From positions 1 to 64,000 of the forward strand of contig JBCCHT010000017.1 in assembly GCA_039028615.1 (NCBI GenBank): a stretch of DNA of 64,000 bases, read 5' to 3'. Made by a program: the position numbers. Each line of letters starts with the position of its first letter. Position 1 is the stretch's first letter. Below are positions 12,001-24,000 of this stretch, piece after piece. This stretch comes from Myxococcota bacterium (lineage in GTDB: Bacteria; Myxococcota_A; Polyangia; Nannocystales; Nannocystaceae).

Positions 12001-15000
12001 CTGCGATGCACGGTACGAGGCGTGTGAAGGTCGTAGCGAAACGCGATGGGCTCGCCCGAGGTGAGGGCCATCTTCACGTCGTCCCAGTCTTCGCCGCTGG
12101 TGTTGTCCACCACCGCCCAGGCCTGGAGCAGCGCGTCGCCCTTGCCCTCGTCGGGGAGCACCACGCGATAGGTGGGCTTCCACATCGGCGCGGAGACGAC
12201 ATAGCTGACGGTGACGTCGTGGGTCTTGTCGCCGACGAGGCGAATGGCGATCTCCACCTGCTGGAACATGCCCTCGCCCGCGCTCGCGTCGAGGCGCCGA
12301 TGCAGCTGCATGGCCAGGTCGCCGTCGTGCAGCGAGATGTCGCGGACCTTGGACAGCCGCACCACTCGCAGCTCGTCGCCTCGCATCAGCGTGACCTTGT
12401 GGTCGCGCTGCGAGGGCCCGCCGCGACCATCACCGCCGCGCAGGGTCGGGCGCGCGTCGGGATCGGGCTCGTCGACGATGCGCTCGACCAACACCACGCG
12501 CCCGCGCACCGGGCCCAGCGAGGTGTGCAGCGTGACTTCCGTCCCGCGCAGACCGTCGAGCAGCTGCGCGATGCTCCCGCGGCCCGGCGCCAAGGCGGTC
12601 AAGGCAGCGGCGGCCCAGGTCTCTGGCTCCAGGGGCATCGAGATGCTCACCGCTTGGCCATTGCGATCGACCACGGTCAGGCTCTTGAGCAAGTCGTTGA
12701 CCTGGTCACGGCGAACGCGAATGCGCAGCTCGGACTCGTCGATCTCACCCTGGCGTTCGAAATAGCCGACGCCGTTGCGGTAGAGCACCACCCGCTCGAG
12801 ATCGAGATCGGTCGCGGCGTCCGGGTATCGATGACGCGTGGTGCCGGCACACGCGGCGGTGGACAGGGCGAGAAGAGCGAGACTGACGAGCGTGGGCGTG
12901 CGCATGATGAGGGGGAGCCAAGGACAATAGCGAACCTGCGAGCTTGTACGCACGAGCGGAACGACGCGGTGTGTTTGGCAGACGACACCGCGCGGTGACA
13001 TTCGTGGTCCAAAGCCCCCCGACGCGACAGCGCGCATTCCGCAAAACAGCGGTTTTGGGCGCACGGACGGCCGCGTACGAGGCTATGATGCCCAAGCCGT
13101 GTCGGAAGTTCTCGTTGGTCCTTTTGGTGAGCTCTACGAGCTGTCGACGCGCTTCGATCTGATGGGCCCGGTCGCCTCCACGGTGACGCTGCGCGACGCG
13201 GAGTCGTGGAGCCGCACGCTGAACTGGGTCGTCGACCATCCCGACAACCTCGTCGCCCTCCGCAATACGCTGATGCGCGCGGTTCCAAGCCTCGGGGCCG
13301 AAGCACGAGACCTGGCCGAGAAGCGCCTGCTCGAGTTGTTTGCGCGCGAGCTGGCCTCGGGCGAAGTGGTCATCTCCACGCGGGACCGACTGCGGCCCAA
13401 TGTCGACCTCCTCGACGACGTGCCCGAAGACCTCACCGCGCTCGATGAAGCGGACGCGGGAGACTCCGACCGCGGCACCGAAGAGACGACGCCCGCCCCC
13501 GCCCCCGTGGTCGAGTGCGTCTTGGACGTGGTCACGTACGCGTGCAGCCACAAGGGCGAGCGCAAGGCGGCGCTGCGTCTCGAGGCGGGCACCTCCACCA
13601 AATCCCGCGTACTCGAGGTCATCGCCGCCGACAAGGGCAACGGTGACATCATCACCGTCACCCCGCAGTACAGCGCCGCCCCCTGCTCGACCCACGCTAC
13701 CAAGGCGTTGCTGGTGCGCGGCCGCGGCCTGAACGAGACGCTGGGGCAAGGGGAGCAGCAGGTCGAGGTCTTCTACGACAGCATCGATCAGACCGACCTG
13801 CTCGGCTACTTCTGGTCGTGGAACAAGAGCGGGCACGACTTCACCTTCAGCCCGCAGGTCTGCACCGGGCACGGCGTCTCGGCCACCGTGCGGGTCTATC
13901 CCGCGCTCGAGGCCTCGGCCCACATCATGCTGATGCTCGAGACCCGCAACCGGGTCGACAACGTCGTCGCCAAGGCGCAGTCGCGGGGCTACCACGAAAA
14001 GCGCGGGCGCCCGGCGTTCACCGAGTGGCGCTTCGAGGTCGCGGCCAAGGTCAAGTACGGCCCGCACGCCTCCGAGTTCAGCATCGGCAACAAGGACCAG
14101 CGCAAGGACCCGGGCCGGGTCGAGCGCTGGGCCGCCTTCAACCGCCTGATCAAGCGCTCGATCGACGTCTTCGCCGACAACCTCGCGCAGTACGCCTGCG
14201 TCTCGATGGTCGGGGGCTCGACCGACGACAAGGTCCCGGTCCTGCAGCTGCGCCCGATGTTCCCGCAGCTCGAGATCGAGTACACGGGCAAGTACGAAGA
14301 GATCGCCTCGTCACCCAAGGTGGGCACGGCCTGGAGCGTGAAGCTCAAGGCCAACCCGCTGCTGGGGCTCGAGGCACGCCTGGAGATCCTCGCGCTGTTC
14401 ATCCAGGCGATGAAGCGCTTCCCCAAGACGGCCCCGGTCGGCTACGGCCTCGAGAAGGTCCGCGAGTGGGCCAAGAAGAAGAAGCAGACCATCGAGCTTT
14501 ATATCGCCCTGCAGGGGGTCATCGAGGGCGACTGCGGCATCGAGAAGAAGGCCGAGCTGGCCAAGGGCAGCGCCACCGGGCACATCCAGGGCGCGATCAA
14601 GGTGCTCTTCGAGGCCGTGGCTGCGCTGGGCTCCTCGGGCTACATCGGGTTCGCCTTCGGGGCGGAGGTCAAGGGCAACACCGGCCTCGCCGTGCGGCTC
14701 CAGCTCGACCACGACAGCAAGGGCGTGTTCATGGCCGGCAAGTTCGTGCTGCTGGAGTGCAAGTTCAAGGCGGCCGCCTGGGCCTCGGGCAAGTTCATCT
14801 GGGAGATCAAGGAATCCTACGAAGGCGAGTTCCAGTTCTGGCAGGAGCGCGACCTGCTGAGCACGGGCAACAAGTACGTGCTCACCAACTGAGCCCTGTC
14901 GAGGCTACGGAACGGCGGCGGCCGGGTTCGCCTCGATGCGTACCGCGGCCCGGATGTCGTCGGCGACATGGGCGAGGTAGCGGAACTCGATGCCGTGCCG

Positions 15001-21000: not shown

Positions 21001-24000
21001 GAGGTCATGCGCGGCACCGTTCAGCGGGAGAGGTTGAGCACGGGGAGATGGCGAGGCGAGGCAGTGGCGGGGCGCGTGGGCACCAGGCCGTAGTCGCTCA
21101 GGTCCGTGGCGGCGTAGGCCTGCTCGACGGGGACCAGCGGCGTGTAGTGCTGTCGGACCAGGGCGGCCAGCACCTGCCGATGCGAGCGGGCGAGATCGGC
21201 GTACAGCTCGAGGGTCAGGCCGATCAGGGACTTGCGCCCGTCACAGGCCTCCTCGATCACCCCGTCGTATCCGCGCCCGGCCGAGTGCGCCCGGTGGTAG
21301 CACTCGCCCCCGCAGGCATGGCGGGCCCAGCAGCTGCGGCAGGGCTCGCGCTGGTCGACCCGCTTGGCCAACGGCACCCGGCGCTGGGCCGAGGTCAGCC
21401 CGTCCCGCACGTGCCCCAAGGCGAAGTCGTCCTCCTCGAGGAAGTGATGGCAGGGGTACAGCGTGCCGCTCGGGGCCACGCCGAGCGAGGAGACCCCCGT
21501 GGTGCAGGGATACCAGCTGGTCACGTTGGCGCGGCGCTCGACCAAGCGACCCAGGATGTTGGAGAAGGGGGCGACGGCCAGCACCTCGCCCGCGAGCAGC
21601 CGCTCCCGATACCAGTGCATCAGCTCGACCACGTCGGGCACGTCGCCGCGGCGGCCGAACCCGTCCTCGCCGTAGGCCGTCTGGATGTGGATGTCGTTGA
21701 AGCCGAGGTCTCGGAACCAGCGCGCCAGCGGGAGGATGGCCCGGGCCTCGGCCGCCACCGCGTTGACCCGACGCCAAGGGATCGCCAGCCGATCCATCAT
21801 GCGACGAATGTTGCGGAGCACCAGCTTGGCCGTGCCTCGGCCGTTCTTGAACACCCGGTGCGCGTCGTTGATGGTGGGCGGCCCGTCGAGGCTCACCACC
21901 ACGCCGATCTCGTTGTCGTTGATCCAGTCGATGAGTTCGTCGGTGACCCCGGTGCCGTTGGTATAGACGCTGACCGACAGGGTGATGCCCCGCTCGGCGC
22001 AGCGCTGCCGGCCATAGGCGACCATCTCGTATAGGCGTGCCTTCTCGAGCAGGGGCTCGCCGCCGATGAAGCACAGCGACAGCTGCTTCTCGTCGCCCGC
22101 CTGGTCGACGAAGGCGTCGATGGTCTCGCGACCGACCTGCGCCGACATGCCGCGCGGGACCTCGCTGCCCTTGCGATCTTTGCTGTCGAGCTCGTTGTAG
22201 CAGTAGCTACAGCCCATATTGCAGTGATAGGTGTTGCCCACGTTGAGCCGCGTGAGCACCTTGGCGACCCCTTCGGCCGCGGTGAACGAGGGCGGGCGCG
22301 TGATCACGGGCAAGACCCGCTGCAGCGCGGCGAGGTCGTCGGCACTCGGCTCCGCGCTGGCCCTTCGCCCTTCGGCCATCGCCTCGGCCCGCCGCATGAG
22401 CTCGGCCGGTCCGCGGATCACGGCCATGCTGTCGGGGTTGTAGAGAATCCGCCGCCCGTCGTCGGGCGCGATGGGATCCAGCCCCTCGATGGGTCGGGGT
22501 CGTGATTCGGTCGTCATGCGTGCTCGTCCTCGGCTCGAGAAAAGGGAGCCACCGCGAAGCCCCGGAGGGCTCCGCGGCAGCCGTACGGGCTCAGTTCGGC
22601 GAGGGCTCGACCGCGCTGATGTTGCAGGCCACGACGATGCAGTTCGCCGATCGGCCGCCGATCACCTTCTCCAGGTCCTCGATGTCGATGTCGACGATGT
22701 CGAGCTCCCGGTCATCTCGTTCGTTGTCTCGAGTGGGGTTCTTCGGTTCGTTCATGTTGTTTTTCGTTGTGTTGTTGTTGGGGAAAACGAGCGCACCAAC
22801 GAGGCGCACCCGCGTCGTTCGAGCTCGGCACACGAAGATGCGTGCACCGGCCCAAGGGACGTTCGATGGTTCGAGCCACACGGGTCCGCCACCAGCAACG
22901 GGGGGCCCGGGTCCGAAGGTTGTCAGCGTAGGGTTTCGGATCAGGGGGGCCACCGACGCGGGCCCCCTTTGCACAACATGCGCAACGCTCAGGGTTCGTT
23001 TGTCATCGCTCGAGTCGGTCGCCTCAAAAGTCCACCAGGCGTCCGACTGTCAAATCCAAGAAGTCGTCGACCCCGAGTTGCACGCCGCGTACCAAGGCGC
23101 GCCGCCGGCGAAATCGCGGTGCTCGGGGCTATGCTCCCGGTTTCGGCCTACAGGGCGGAGACCACAGATCGTAGGGTCGAGCCTACAGCGGCCGTGCTAC
23201 AAGAACCTCGGCCATGACCGACGCCAAGGTTCCCATCTACGAGGTGGTGCTGACCGCGAGCGATCTCGACATCGAGGTCCGCGTCAACGACGTGCCGGTC
23301 ATGCGGGTCGGCGGCGGCCATGTCGAGACCAAGTTCGACGTCAACCCGCACGTGTTCACGGGCAAAAACCACCTGGGGGCCGTGGTCCGGCCCCCCGGCG
23401 ACGCCCCGAACTATTCTCCGGGAGCACGAGCGGAGATCGAGCTGCGCGTGCTCGGTTTTCCCGGCAACGACCTGGTCGACCCTCGCGGCCGACTCGTCTT
23501 CGAGGCGAGCGGGGTCGAGGCGGGCGAGGCCTTCGCTCACTCGTGGACGCCCGAGGGCGCCGAGCCGGTCGTGCGTCAGGCTCGGGCCGGCCTCGCCTTT
23601 CGCTCGCGGATCCCCGTCGATCTCATGACCCCCTTTCCACCGTGGGGTTGGCTGAGCGCCGACACCCTCAACGACGGACCGGTCGTCTTCGACGAGCTGC
23701 ACACCGAGCTCGAGGCGCTGTGGAGTCTGGTGCAATCCAAGGACACGGCCACGCTCGAGGCGGTCGCGGCCGAGCAAGCCATCGATTGGCAGATCGCCTA
23801 CGGCCTCGACAGCGAGGACGAAGCGCAGCGCCTGCTGGGCGTCGCCGACACGCTGGGCGATCCCGACGTGGAAGCCCTGCCGCTGCCCGATCCGGGCGAT
23901 CTACGGCTGCAGCTGCTCGGCTTCCGCAAGCTGGCACGGTTGGTCGACGCGGACGGCAAGGATCCGATCACCCTCGGCGTCCGCAATGCCCCCCACATGA

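What a model noticed while it worked through the whole genome (the two positions that open the first line are those of the whole stretch)
14905..22755. Eight-gene RiPP operon joining a radical-SAM/SPASM enzyme, an MNIO with a unique 240-residue extension and a double YcaO [...]
g04388-g04381 (C17 14905-22755, all on the minus strand, gaps of at most 75 nt) form one operon. It starts with a 54-aa precursor that has an acidic double-glycine leader and the core RSANCIVVACNISAVEPSPN. Then come a radical-SAM/SPASM enzyme, an MNIO (DUF692) fused to a 240-residue C-terminal part without any family match, YcaO, TfuA, a second YcaO, a GNAT and a TylF-type O-methyltransferase. I found this enzyme set described for no RiPP class, and the fused MNIO is very rare.
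Evidence so far: Map and precursor. Domain limits: the MNIO model covers residues 52-254 of 495. The C-terminal 240 residues match 0 Pfam families at E<=0.1. Full-length homologues of the fusion: 4 in 5.8 billion proteins, at 39-43% identity. In 400 sampled Myxococcota genomes no match exceeds 35% identity, and matches cover the MNIO domain only. No related locus was found in the genome or metagenome contig scans. The search MNIO + YcaO + TfuA gave 2 papers, 1 listed.
(Added by a program. Inside this text positions count along the whole contig: contig position 1 is position 1 of the stretch shown here. "Call 12" and the like, gene names such as g00115 and contig names such as C1 are that model's own, and its searches are not shown. 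The text may have been shortened before it was handed on; [...] marks where a part breaks off. The agent that wrote the report below was given it as the finding of a first reader that could run no searches.)

Follow-up and report, generated by a model that had tools for sequence, protein, structure and literature searches.

The report
Rare conserved rSAM–MNIO–YcaO peptide operon
This is a real eight-gene operon for an uncharacterised modified peptide; its odd enzyme extension is a fused helper domain, and a few related clusters elsewhere share one invariant Ala-Cys site.

Summary
The operon is real: eight tightly coupled minus-strand genes at 14905-22755. They encode a 54-aa precursor, a radical-SAM/SPASM enzyme, an MNIO with a C-terminal extension, YcaO, TfuA, a second YcaO, a GNAT and a TylF-type methyltransferase.

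1. The "unique 240-residue extension" is best read as a divergent, fused MNIO partner domain. Three structure searches put TglI, NGO1945/DUF2063, MbnC and HvfC on top. No sequence method supports this.

2. Related loci do exist. Two metagenome contigs and one Actinomycetota MAG carry the same fused MNIO. The two loci long enough to show them also carry the orthologous rSAM, GNAT and precursor genes; all three carry TfuA and YcaO.

Eight distinct precursors of three types share an acidic leader motif. They also share an invariant Ala-Cys followed by Asn/Glu, in cores as short as 8 residues.

The family is very rare: one other genome in a pattern scan of the species-representative collection.

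The product is unknown. My prediction is thioamide, Cys thioether and MNIO oxidation, all centred on the Ala-Cys-(Asn/Glu) triad. No paper in the searched library describes this three-enzyme combination.

The parts
22756..23213 (.). Divergent intergenic region, the presumed promoter region of the operon. The next gene (23214-24059) is on the + strand.
   Evidence: ORF and GC3 map. No sigma-70 consensus match. An A-rich stretch lies directly before the precursor ATG.
22591..22755 (-). Precursor peptide gene: 54 aa, a 34-aa acidic leader ending VIGG and a 20-aa core RSANCIVVACNISAVEPSPN. Ala43-Cys44 are invariant across the family.
   Evidence: GC3 0.87. Single copy in the genome. Homologous precursors found.
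22547..22582 (-). Strong hairpin followed by a T-rich tract, between the precursor and the rSAM gene. Likely a partial terminator or attenuator that raises precursor transcript relative to enzyme transcript (inferred).
   Evidence: 16 pairs, 11 G-C. (-38.8 kcal/mol, z -3.75, 0 of 200 shuffles fold as well).
21021..22517 (-). Radical-SAM/SPASM peptide maturase (498 aa) with CX3CX2C at residues 99-106 and seven further Cys at 338-425. Nearest families are QhpD, PapB and the SCIFF-type thioether formers.
   Evidence: Orthologues at 46-55% identity in L010, L090 and L092.
20238..21017 (-). MNIO (DUF692, PF05114) TIM-barrel domain of the fusion protein.
   Evidence: 81.7 bits. (Foldseek: TglH 8hci_B E 4e-12, 3bww, MbnB). 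(BufB 69 bits against a cut-off of 310).
19521..20141 (-). C-terminal extension of the MNIO protein (residues about 290-495): a helical bundle followed by a small beta-alpha-beta unit. Read as a fused, divergent MNIO partner / leader-binding domain.
   Evidence: Models: (pLDDT 80.6 and 84.3). Foldseek top 3 are 3dee, 8hi7_A and 8hci_A. VIA-align top 3 are 8hci_C (Z 7.5), 3dee_A (Z 5.9) and 7dz9_C (Z 4.9). ESM Atlas by structure: HvfC/DUF2063, TM 0.55.
18241..19524 (-). YcaO 1 (427 aa). Its GTG start overlaps the MNIO stop (GTGA), with GGAGG upstream. Presumed thioamidation partner of TfuA.
   Evidence: (TIGR03266, 262 bits). Orthologues at 48.5% (L090) and 44.7% (L009).
17595..18248 (-). TfuA (217 aa).
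   Evidence: NF033432, 199 bits; cut-off 235. Orthologues at 47-57%.
16375..17598 (-). YcaO 2 (407 aa), a separate orthologous lineage, 31% identical to YcaO 1.
   Evidence: (TIGR03266, 178 bits). Orthologues at 48% (L089) and 45.7% (L009).
15566..16378 (-). GNAT acyltransferase (270 aa) with a roughly 150-aa N-terminal part that has no Pfam match. Present in all three loci where this region is visible.
   Evidence: 38% identity to L090 and 31% to L010.
14905..15564 (-). TylF / Methyltransf_24-type SAM methyltransferase (219 aa from ATG 15564). Specific to this lineage: the Actinomycetota locus has an unrelated class I methyltransferase instead.
   Evidence: No BLAST match between the two methyltransferases.

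Best explanation
This is a functional RiPP biosynthetic operon. It belongs to a very rare gene-cluster family that is nevertheless conserved across distant lineages.

Shown or strongly supported:
- A 54-aa precursor with an acidic amphipathic leader is encoded first and followed by an attenuator-like hairpin.
- Seven translationally coupled enzyme genes follow it.
- The MNIO carries its own partner domain, of TglI/DUF2063/MbnC/HvfC-like fold, fused to its C-terminus.
- Loci with the same fusion recur in an Actinomycetota MAG, a 67%-GC contig and a 39%-GC contig. All three carry TfuA and YcaO. The two loci long enough to show them also carry the orthologous rSAM/SPASM, GNAT and precursors. Both high-GC loci have the two YcaO lineages.
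- All precursors keep the leader motif (hydrophobic/acidic alternation ...I-D/E-I/L-E-G-I/L-D/E..) and an invariant Ala-Cys followed by Asn/Glu and then Ile/Lys. The core can be as short as AACNKASM.

Inferred mechanism:
1. The fused partner domain, and probably the roughly 90-aa N-terminal part of the rSAM, bind the leader.
2. YcaO1-TfuA installs a backbone thioamide at or next to the Ala-Cys-(Asn/Glu) triad.
3. The QhpD/PapB-like rSAM joins the Cys sulfur to an unactivated side-chain carbon, giving a ranthipeptide-type thioether. The neighbouring Asn/Glu or a residue 3-4 positions downstream is the acceptor.
4. The MNIO oxidises the same triad.
5. YcaO2 performs a second ATP-dependent backbone activation: a second thioamide, an azoline or an amidine.
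6. The GNAT acylates an amine.
7. In this lineage a TylF-type enzyme adds a methyl group.
8. The leader is cut after Gly-Gly and the product is exported by a C39-ABC transporter encoded elsewhere in the genome.
For: - Gene map, coupling and domains.
- Hairpin after the precursor.
- Partner-domain fold:
  - Foldseek: the top 3 of 350,542 chains are NGO1945/DUF2063 (3dee, prob 0.92) and the non-MNIO subunit of TglHI (8hi7_A, 8hci_A).
  - VIA-align: the top 3 of 48,161 chains are 8hci_C (Z 7.5, 178 aligned), 3dee_A (Z 5.9) and 7dz9_C, the 180-residue chain of the MbnABC complex that I read as MbnC (Z 4.9).
  - ESM Atlas structure search: an HvfC-family / DUF2063 cluster is first (TM 0.55 over residues 302-495).
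  - Canonical MNIO+DUF2063 fusions exist (P0015 and P0017; one of 8 MNIO loci in this genome).
- Related loci. Their annotation.
- Reciprocal similarity: rSAM 46-55%, TfuA 47-57%, YcaO1 45-49%, YcaO2 46-48%, GNAT 31-38%. The two window YcaOs are only 31% identical to each other.
- Precursors: 9 small proteins (8 distinct after merging a shorter form) of 3 types. E29, A43 and C44 are invariant in 8 of 8.
- Enzyme affinities: the rSAM scores best against QhpD (203 bits), PapB (193), the nif11 rSAM and the SCIFF maturase. Both YcaOs score best against the McrA-Gly thioamidation YcaO. TfuA scores best against the thioamidation TfuA.
- Nearest solved relatives: 5wgg for the rSAM and MJ1094 (6pe3/6peu) for both YcaOs.
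- A C39-ABC transporter sits in the L010 cluster. The window genome has homologues at 42% and 33% identity on other contigs.
Against: - No sequence method links the extension to any partner family. Pfam gives 0 hits at E<=10. hhalign against two MNIO+DUF2063 fusions aligns only the MNIO domain.
- The fold scores are individually weak. Foldseek finds no match at E<=0.001. VIA Z is below 8, which the tool says can be a common arrangement.
- Every enzyme scores below the curated cut-off of every named equivalog, so no reaction can be transferred by homology.
- The shortest cores have one Cys, yet both rSAM thioether formers and most characterised MNIOs (the latter recalled) use Cys. So at least one of my assignments, or the assumption of independent sites, is probably wrong.
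- The Actinomycetota-type precursors lack the Gly-Gly site.
- The window operon has no protease or exporter. The best unlinked C39-ABC transporter sits with HlyD and an ATP-grasp gene, so it may serve another peptide.
- L010 shows only one YcaO in the part visible.
- The conserved 'DH' of other MNIOs reads 'ED' in all 9 fusion proteins. If that His is an iron ligand (recalled), the metal site differs.
- Nothing shows expression or a product.
Confidence: 0.75

Rival explanations
1. The class-defining unit is the rSAM/SPASM enzyme, its precursor and the GNAT, making this a ranthipeptide-like peptide. The MNIO fusion and the YcaO/TfuA genes are optional tailoring modules added in a few lineages. 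On this reading the operon is an elaborated member of a larger rSAM family, not an MNIO-centred system.
For: - The rSAM has 53 homologues at E<=1e-40 and 30-54% identity, including proteins from Streptomyces and Kitasatospora isolates and a Chloroflexi MAG.
- By contrast, an exhaustive search with the MNIO extension finds only 7 relatives with the extension. A pattern scan of the species genomes finds one other genome.
- rSAM/SPASM genes next to TfuA-YcaO have been noted in silico before (PMC8120280, passages read).
Against: - They may carry unfused or more divergent MNIOs.
- In both other loci whose rSAM neighbourhood is visible (L010 and the G041 MAG), the rSAM lies in the same locus as the fused MNIO, TfuA and YcaO.
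Confidence: 0.3
2. The C-terminal 240 residues are a new domain unrelated to MNIO partner proteins. It would have a different role, for example a second catalytic or regulatory function.
For: - No Pfam hit at E<=10.
- No profile-profile alignment to DUF2063 fusions.
- Fold scores are modest.
- Complex prediction gave no verdict, so it does not bear on this.
Against: - Three searches that differ in method and library all rank MNIO partner proteins first.
- The domain sits exactly where canonical fusions carry DUF2063.
- The operon has no separate partner gene.
Confidence: 0.1
3. The enzymes mature a protein subunit rather than a secreted peptide, in the way QhpD acts on QhpC or YcaO/TfuA on McrA. 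On this reading the 54-aa ORF is incidental.
For: The best NCBIfam matches are to QhpD and to the McrA-type YcaO/TfuA.
Against: - All those scores are below the cut-offs.
- There are no dehydrogenase or Mcr genes nearby.
- The small ORF is conserved in position and motif in the two other loci whose precursor region is visible. It has a leader/core layout. In L010 it is duplicated and sits next to a C39-ABC exporter.
Confidence: 0.03

Closest known systems
MNIO/partner systems: TglHI, MbnBC, BufBC/HvfBC, ApyHI
   Same: - TIM-barrel MNIO domain (Pfam 81.7 bits; Foldseek matches to TglH and MbnB).
- A partner-like domain of TglI/DUF2063/MbnC/HvfC fold.
- A Cys-containing precursor.
   Different: - The partner is fused and has no detectable sequence similarity to DUF2063 or MbnC.
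- The MNIO is far below every equivalog cut-off: BufB 69 of 310, ApyH 61 of 400, HvfB 40 of 360.
- 'ED' replaces the 'DH' motif.
- It is accompanied by an rSAM and YcaOs. The precursor has no signal peptide.
std cluster of Streptomyces thermodiastaticus (PMC13174530; abstract and section 5 read)
   Same: An MNIO with an RRE-containing partner working together with a YcaO-TfuA thioamidation pair on one short conserved core.
   Different: - std has a separate partner protein, an S8/carbamoyltransferase fusion and an MFS exporter. Its core is SNKEWQE.
- std has no rSAM, no second YcaO and no GNAT.
- Here the core is built on Ala-Cys-(Asn/Glu).
Ranthipeptide / QhpD-type thioether-forming rSAM-SPASM maturases (PapB, CteB, QhpD)
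   Same: - CX3CX2C plus a Cys-rich SPASM region.
- Best family scores are to QhpD, PapB, the nif11 rSAM and the SCIFF maturase.
- The nearest solved chain is 5wgg, which I recall as CteB.
- The core has a Cys next to an Asn/Glu.
   Different: - Below all cut-offs: 203 of 453 and 193 of 340.
- The cores have one or two Cys, not Cys-rich repeats.
- It is linked to an MNIO and YcaOs.
In-silico 'thioamidated ranthipeptide' clusters (TfuA-YcaO with rSAM/SPASM and PqqD) in Sphaerisporangium, Microbispora and Herbidospora (PMC8120280; passages read)
   Same: Co-occurrence of TfuA-YcaO with an rSAM/SPASM enzyme.
   Different: That paper does not mention DUF692 (0 occurrences). Those clusters have a standalone PqqD. 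The products are uncharacterised there too.

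Membership tests
RiPP biosynthetic gene cluster | A short precursor gene next to its modifying enzymes, with a leader/core layout conserved among related clusters | tested here: met
   The leader motif and Ala-Cys are conserved in 8 of 8 distinct precursors.
RiPP biosynthetic gene cluster | A leader protease and/or exporter in the cluster | tested here: not met
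   None in the window operon or its flanks. A C39-ABC transporter is present in L010 and an ABC transporter in L089. Unlinked C39-ABC genes exist in the window genome.
MNIO (PF05114 / DUF692) | Family HMM above the gathering score, and a TIM-barrel fold like TglH/MbnB | tested here: met
   81.7 bits against 25. Foldseek 8hci_B E 4e-12, 3bww, 7fc0.
MNIO (PF05114 / DUF692) | The full set of conserved metal-binding His/Asp/Glu residues | tested here: inconclusive
   H63, E97, D98, E145, D176, H179, E205, H207, E252 and H254 are invariant in 9 of 9 fusions. However, 'DH' reads 'ED' and 'DVNN' reads 'DVSH' relative to 3bww and the canonical fusions. Which of these bind iron is recalled, not tested.
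MNIO (PF05114 / DUF692) | A partner protein (MbnC/TglI/DUF2063-RRE type) | tested here: inconclusive
   Met by predicted fold. Not met by sequence. Binding to the leader was not shown.
Characterised MNIO subfamilies (BufB, ApyH, HvfB equivalogs) | Score above the NCBIfam equivalog cut-off | tested here: not met
   69.4 of 310, 60.6 of 400, 39.9 of 360.
YcaO-TfuA backbone thioamidation pair | Adjacent ycaO and tfuA genes with family HMM matches | tested here: met
   YcaO 246.8 bits and TfuA 127.4 bits. The genes overlap by 8 nt.
YcaO-TfuA backbone thioamidation pair | Membership of the McrA-glycine thioamidation equivalogs | tested here: not met
   TIGR03266: 262 and 178 bits against a cut-off of 365. 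NF033432: 199 against 235. These are the nearest families only.
YcaO-TfuA backbone thioamidation pair | A thioamide in the product | not testable with these tools
   Needs mass spectrometry (+16 Da per O-to-S exchange).
Thioether-forming rSAM/SPASM maturases (ranthipeptide/QhpD type) | CX3CX2C and a SPASM auxiliary-cluster Cys set | tested here: met
   CNMGCSYC at 99-106. Cys at 338, 356, 393, 396, 402, 406 and 425. Pfam SPASM scores 19.4 bits, just under 21.5, in the window protein and 25.0 in the L010 orthologue.
Thioether-forming rSAM/SPASM maturases (ranthipeptide/QhpD type) | Score above the equivalog cut-off (QhpD, PapB, SCIFF) | tested here: not met
   202.8 of 453, 193.3 of 340, 153.4 of 425.
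Double-glycine leader / C39-ABC (PCAT) exported peptides | A Gly-Gly site at the leader-core junction | tested here: inconclusive
   Present in the window (VIGG) and in the low-GC type (VIGG, VLGG). Absent at that position in the 5 Actinomycetota-type precursors.

The most novel reading that the evidence does not exclude
These loci define a new RiPP class. Three unrelated maturation systems converge on a single invariant Ala-Cys-(Asn/Glu) triad in a core as short as eight residues: an rSAM/SPASM enzyme, a self-contained MNIO-partner fusion with an altered metal motif, and YcaO/TfuA. The result would be a sulfur-rich scaffold with no precedent, for example a thioamide flanking a thioether-bridged or MNIO-rearranged Cys. 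Its function could be metal binding or antibiosis.
Probability: 0.4. Interest if true: 0.8.

Novelty: new variant of a known kind. Interest (0 to 1): 0.6.

Why it matters
MNIOs, YcaOs and rSAM/SPASM enzymes are three of the most chemically inventive RiPP enzyme families. A cluster in which all three appear to act on one tiny conserved motif is a compact test bed. It allows study of how such enzymes are ordered and share a substrate, and of what a divergent MNIO with a built-in partner does.

It also gives several natural precursor variants for expression studies, including an 8-residue core. For the scan, it shows that "no family match" extensions on MNIOs should be tested as fused partners before being called new domains.

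Tried and rejected
- **Complex prediction** (MNIO fusion with alignment A3, plus the 54-aa precursor): no verdict. Scores were 0.02 and 0.27 against a mark of 0.32, and the controls were not run. This is not evidence either way.
- **hhalign** of the fusion alignment against two canonical MNIO+DUF2063 fusions: only the MNIO domain aligned.
- **Foldseek on the whole-protein model:** hits only on the TIM barrel, so the extension was modelled separately.
- **Sample of 400 further genomes of the phylum of the Actinomycetota MAG, queried with the rSAM:** 0 of 400 had a match at E<=1e-60. The Streptomyces/Kitasatospora rSAM homologues could therefore not be seen in context.
- **tblastn of the rSAM against plasmids:** one 32% match in a Novosphingobium plasmid, not pursued.
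- **Middle 374 residues of the L010 TfuA-YcaO fusion:** no similarity to any cluster protein. It is not a degenerate second YcaO.
- **Sigma-70 promoter scan of the operon region:** 0 sites.
- **The look-up of sequencing runs:** one DNA holder (X1), possibly the source itself. No RNA holder is listed.
- **Considered and rejected:**
  - An artefact of high-GC open frames. Rejected by Pfam hits, GC3 and the coupled starts.
  - A bufferin or methanobactin cluster. Rejected by the equivalog scores, the absence of a signal peptide and the different gene set.

Full report
**1. Observation**

The region 14905-22755 holds eight minus-strand ORFs with the high GC3 (0.85-0.90) typical of coding frames in this 70%-GC window.

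| Gene | Evidence |
|---|---|
| Precursor | 54 aa, no family |
| rSAM | Radical_SAM 43.9 bits, Fer4_12 37.4 bits, SPASM 19.4 bits (cut-off 21.5) |
| MNIO | PF05114, 81.7 bits, residues 55-257 of the 498-aa ORF |
| YcaO | 246.8 bits |
| TfuA | 127.4 bits |
| Second YcaO | 189.0 bits |
| GNAT | 30.2 bits |
| Methyltransferase | TylF/Methyltransf_24, 53.1 bits |

Choosing starts by overlap and ribosome-binding context gives gaps of 73, 3, -4, -8, -4, -4 and 1 nt, so this is one translationally coupled operon. The methyltransferase most likely starts at ATG 15564, not 15666.

The operon is bounded by a convergent + gene (13099-14892) and a divergent + gene (23214-24059). Neither has a family match.

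A 16-bp hairpin followed by a T-rich tract lies between the precursor and the rSAM gene. Its free energy is -38.8 kcal/mol (z -3.75), and 0 of 200 shuffles fold as well. From general knowledge of bacteriocin operons, this is the usual way to over-represent the precursor transcript. That role is inferred here.

**2. The "unique" extension**

The C-terminal 241 residues have no Pfam match even at E<=10.

An exhaustive HMMER search of 1.84 billion representatives with the extension alone returned 10 proteins at E<=0.001:
- the query itself;
- six fusion proteins, four of them new (P0023, P0025, P0026, P0027);
- P0024, which is a fragment of the L009 fusion gene;
- two long proteins with short weak matches.

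AlphaFold models were confident for the whole protein (pLDDT 80.6) and for the extension alone (84.3). The extension is a helical bundle followed by a small beta-alpha-beta unit.

Three structure searches agree on what it resembles:
- Foldseek against 350,542 PDB chains gave no match at E<=0.001. Its three best were 3dee (NGO1945, the DUF2063 archetype; E 0.054, prob 0.92) and chains 8hi7_A and 8hci_A, the non-MNIO subunit of the TglHI holoenzyme.
- VIA-align against 48,161 representative chains, run independently of Foldseek, ranked 8hci_C first (Z 7.5, rmsd 5.9, 178 aligned). 3dee_A was second (Z 5.9) and 7dz9_C third (Z 4.9); 7dz9_C is the 180-residue chain of the MbnABC complex, which I read as MbnC. 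Only two chains reached Z>=5.
- The ESM Atlas structure search put an "HvfC family RiPP maturation protein" cluster (DUF2063 100%) first, with TM 0.55 over residues 302-495. It also listed clusters of MNIO+DUF2063 fusion proteins with 69 and 74 members.

Each score is weak alone, and the tools warn about that. Even so, three searches all placing MNIO partner proteins on top is hard to put down to chance, given a domain fused to an MNIO in an operon with no separate partner gene.

The sequence level stays silent. hhalign of the fusion alignment against two canonical MNIO+DUF2063 fusions aligned only the MNIO domain.

The fusion architecture itself is not rare. P0015 and P0017 carry PF05114 plus PF09836. 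In the window's own genome, 6 of 8 MNIO loci have a DUF2063 match beside them, one in the same open frame. What is rare is this divergent subfamily.

**3. Related loci**

Using an alignment of nine fusions (A3), the metagenome scan kept 80 loci. Two cover the whole fusion (L009, residues 10-487; L010, residues 1-492). The other 78 stop by residue 399.

The scan of the species-representative genome collection matched 25 stretches. Only 2 were relatives, and both are adjoining contig ends of one Actinomycetota MAG (L090, L089). A third contig of that MAG carries the start of the rSAM gene (L092).

Annotation:

| Locus | Gene order |
|---|---|
| L010 (39% GC) | fusion MNIO, two tandem precursors, GNAT, rSAM/SPASM, a TfuA-YcaO fusion; then convergent AsnB-like and C39-ABC transporter genes |
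| L009 (67% GC, 4.1 kb) | YcaO, TfuA, fusion MNIO, YcaO |
| MAG (L092, L090, L089) | class I methyltransferase, precursor, rSAM/SPASM, GNAT, YcaO, TfuA, fusion MNIO, YcaO, ABC transporter |

BLASTP shows orthology gene by gene:
- rSAM: 46-55%
- TfuA: 47-57%
- GNAT: 31-38%
- YcaO1: 48.5% and 44.7% to the first YcaO of the MAG and of L009
- YcaO2: 48.1% and 45.7% to their second YcaO

The window's two YcaOs are only 31% identical to each other. The two YcaOs are therefore distinct, conserved lineages in the three high-GC loci. L010 shows one YcaO in the part visible. The methyltransferases are unrelated between loci.

**4. Precursors**

A profile of the four precursors then known retrieved 9 small proteins. 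They fall into three types:
- the window peptide (…LEKVIGG RSANCIVVACNISAVEPSPN);
- a low-GC type (…VVIGG AACNKASM; …FVLGG SAACNKSN);
- five Actinomycetota variants (…VQVIEIEGLDLxELExSMR LVTACEI[NT]A plus three variable residues).

In the alignment of 8 distinct sequences, the invariant columns are one leader Glu and Ala43-Cys44 of the window peptide. These are followed by Asn/Glu and then Ile/Lys.

The window genome holds a single copy of the precursor (next best tblastn E 0.36).

**5. Enzyme affinities**

All named-family scores are below cut-off.
- rSAM: nearest to QhpD (203 of 453), PapB (193 of 340), the nif11-type rSAM and the SCIFF maturase, which are thioether formers. Its nearest solved chain is 5wgg. 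It has CX3CX2C at 99-106 and seven downstream Cys.
- Both YcaOs: nearest to the McrA-glycine thioamidation YcaO (262 and 178 of 365) and to MJ1094 in the PDB.
- TfuA: 199 of 235 for the thioamidation TfuA.
- MNIO: 69 of 310 for BufB.
- The operon has no E1-like/ThiF partner and no azoline dehydrogenase.
- In all nine fusions the "DH" of other MNIOs reads "ED" and "DVNN" reads "DVSH". That these positions bind iron is my recollection, not a result.

**6. Mechanism**

- Shown: the gene set, its coupling, its conservation, the fold of the extension and the conserved target motif.
- Inferred:
  1. Leader capture by the fused partner domain.
  2. Thioamidation by YcaO1-TfuA.
  3. A Cys thioether by the rSAM.
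  4. MNIO oxidation of the same triad.
  5. A second backbone activation by YcaO2.
  6. Acylation by the GNAT.
  7. Methylation, in this lineage only.
  8. Gly-Gly cleavage and export in trans.
- Weak points:
  - The minimal cores have one Cys for two Cys-loving enzyme types.
  - The Actinomycetota precursors lack Gly-Gly.
  - The window operon has no exporter. The best unlinked C39-ABC transporter (42% identical to the L010 one) sits with HlyD and an ATP-grasp gene, so it may belong to another peptide.

**7. Distribution**

None of 40 relatives has an orthologue: the best match is 36% identical and covers the MNIO domain only. In one same-genus genome (G005), the two flanking genes are syntenic at 59-61% identity. 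Between them lie about 2.5 kb holding an SDR gene and a Cys-rich repeat protein instead of the operon. The operon therefore sits in a variable slot, consistent with acquisition.

The rSAM subfamily is wider: 53 homologues at E<=1e-40, including Streptomyces and Kitasatospora isolates. I could not see their contexts.

**8. Literature**

| Search terms | Result |
|---|---|
| MNIO + YcaO + TfuA | 2 papers, 1 listed: the std cluster preprint PMC13174530 |
| MNIO + SPASM + YcaO | 1 review |
| DUF692 + YcaO + radical SAM | 5 papers, reviews or mining papers by their titles (listing only) |
| TfuA + SPASM | 4 papers |

- In the std cluster (abstract and section 5 read), YcaO-TfuA thioamidates an Asn and a partner-MNIO pair hydroxylates homocitrulline. 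It has no rSAM, second YcaO or GNAT.
- PMC8120280 notes TfuA-YcaO next to rSAM/SPASM in silico and never mentions DUF692 (passages).
- The MNIO landscape paper PMC12452194 mentions YcaO and radical SAM only in its reference list (passages). I did not read its supplements.
- Within this library, the triple combination with this precursor is not described.

**9. Verdict**

This is a real, rare, conserved and uncharacterised RiPP cluster family. Its oddest feature is explained as a fused partner domain. It is a new variant of a known kind, and a good expression target rather than a conceptual surprise.

Noticed in passing
own genome G000: C2:170171-170953, C25:49093-49875, C1:207493-208275, C22:26621-27391, C52:89649-90440, C13:92352-93146: Six further MNIO genes score 289-351 bits for PF05114, each with a DUF2063 match beside it (bufferin-like layout). 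In C13 both lie in one 586-aa open frame.
   Followed up: partly
own genome G000:C24:10343-10969: A second divergent MNIO (84.7 bits, similar to the one studied) without a DUF2063 match. Its context was not examined.
   Followed up: no
proteins P0007-P0013: A separate group of roughly 508-aa MNIOs, some named Myxococcaceae by their source. They have a different C-terminal extension of similar length and may be another divergent partner fusion.
   Followed up: no
own genome G000:C18:214217-218500 (L094 7227-11428): A C39-ABC transporter, an HlyD-type protein and a RimK-like ATP-grasp gene lie in a row. This looks like a graspetide-type peptide cluster.
   Followed up: partly
L010:4490-7198: A TfuA-YcaO fusion protein of 902 aa. 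It has a roughly 370-residue middle part that matches no protein of these loci. An AsnB-like gene lies between it and the C39-ABC transporter.
   Followed up: partly
window 13099-14892 (+) and 23214-24059 (+): The two flanking genes have no Pfam or NCBIfam family. They are conserved at 59-61% identity and syntenic in one same-genus genome.
   Followed up: partly
L093 3331-5172 (G005:C101): A secreted-looking protein with repeated 'CNADCTAAACGD' Cys-rich units and a Gly-rich tail occupies the slot that holds the operon in the window.
   Followed up: no
window 24404-25510 (+) and 10632-13064 (-): A Ser/Thr protein kinase (Pkinase, 160.8 bits) and a weak MuiA-family match (66.6 of 112.6 bits) lie near the operon. 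No link to it is evident.
   Followed up: no
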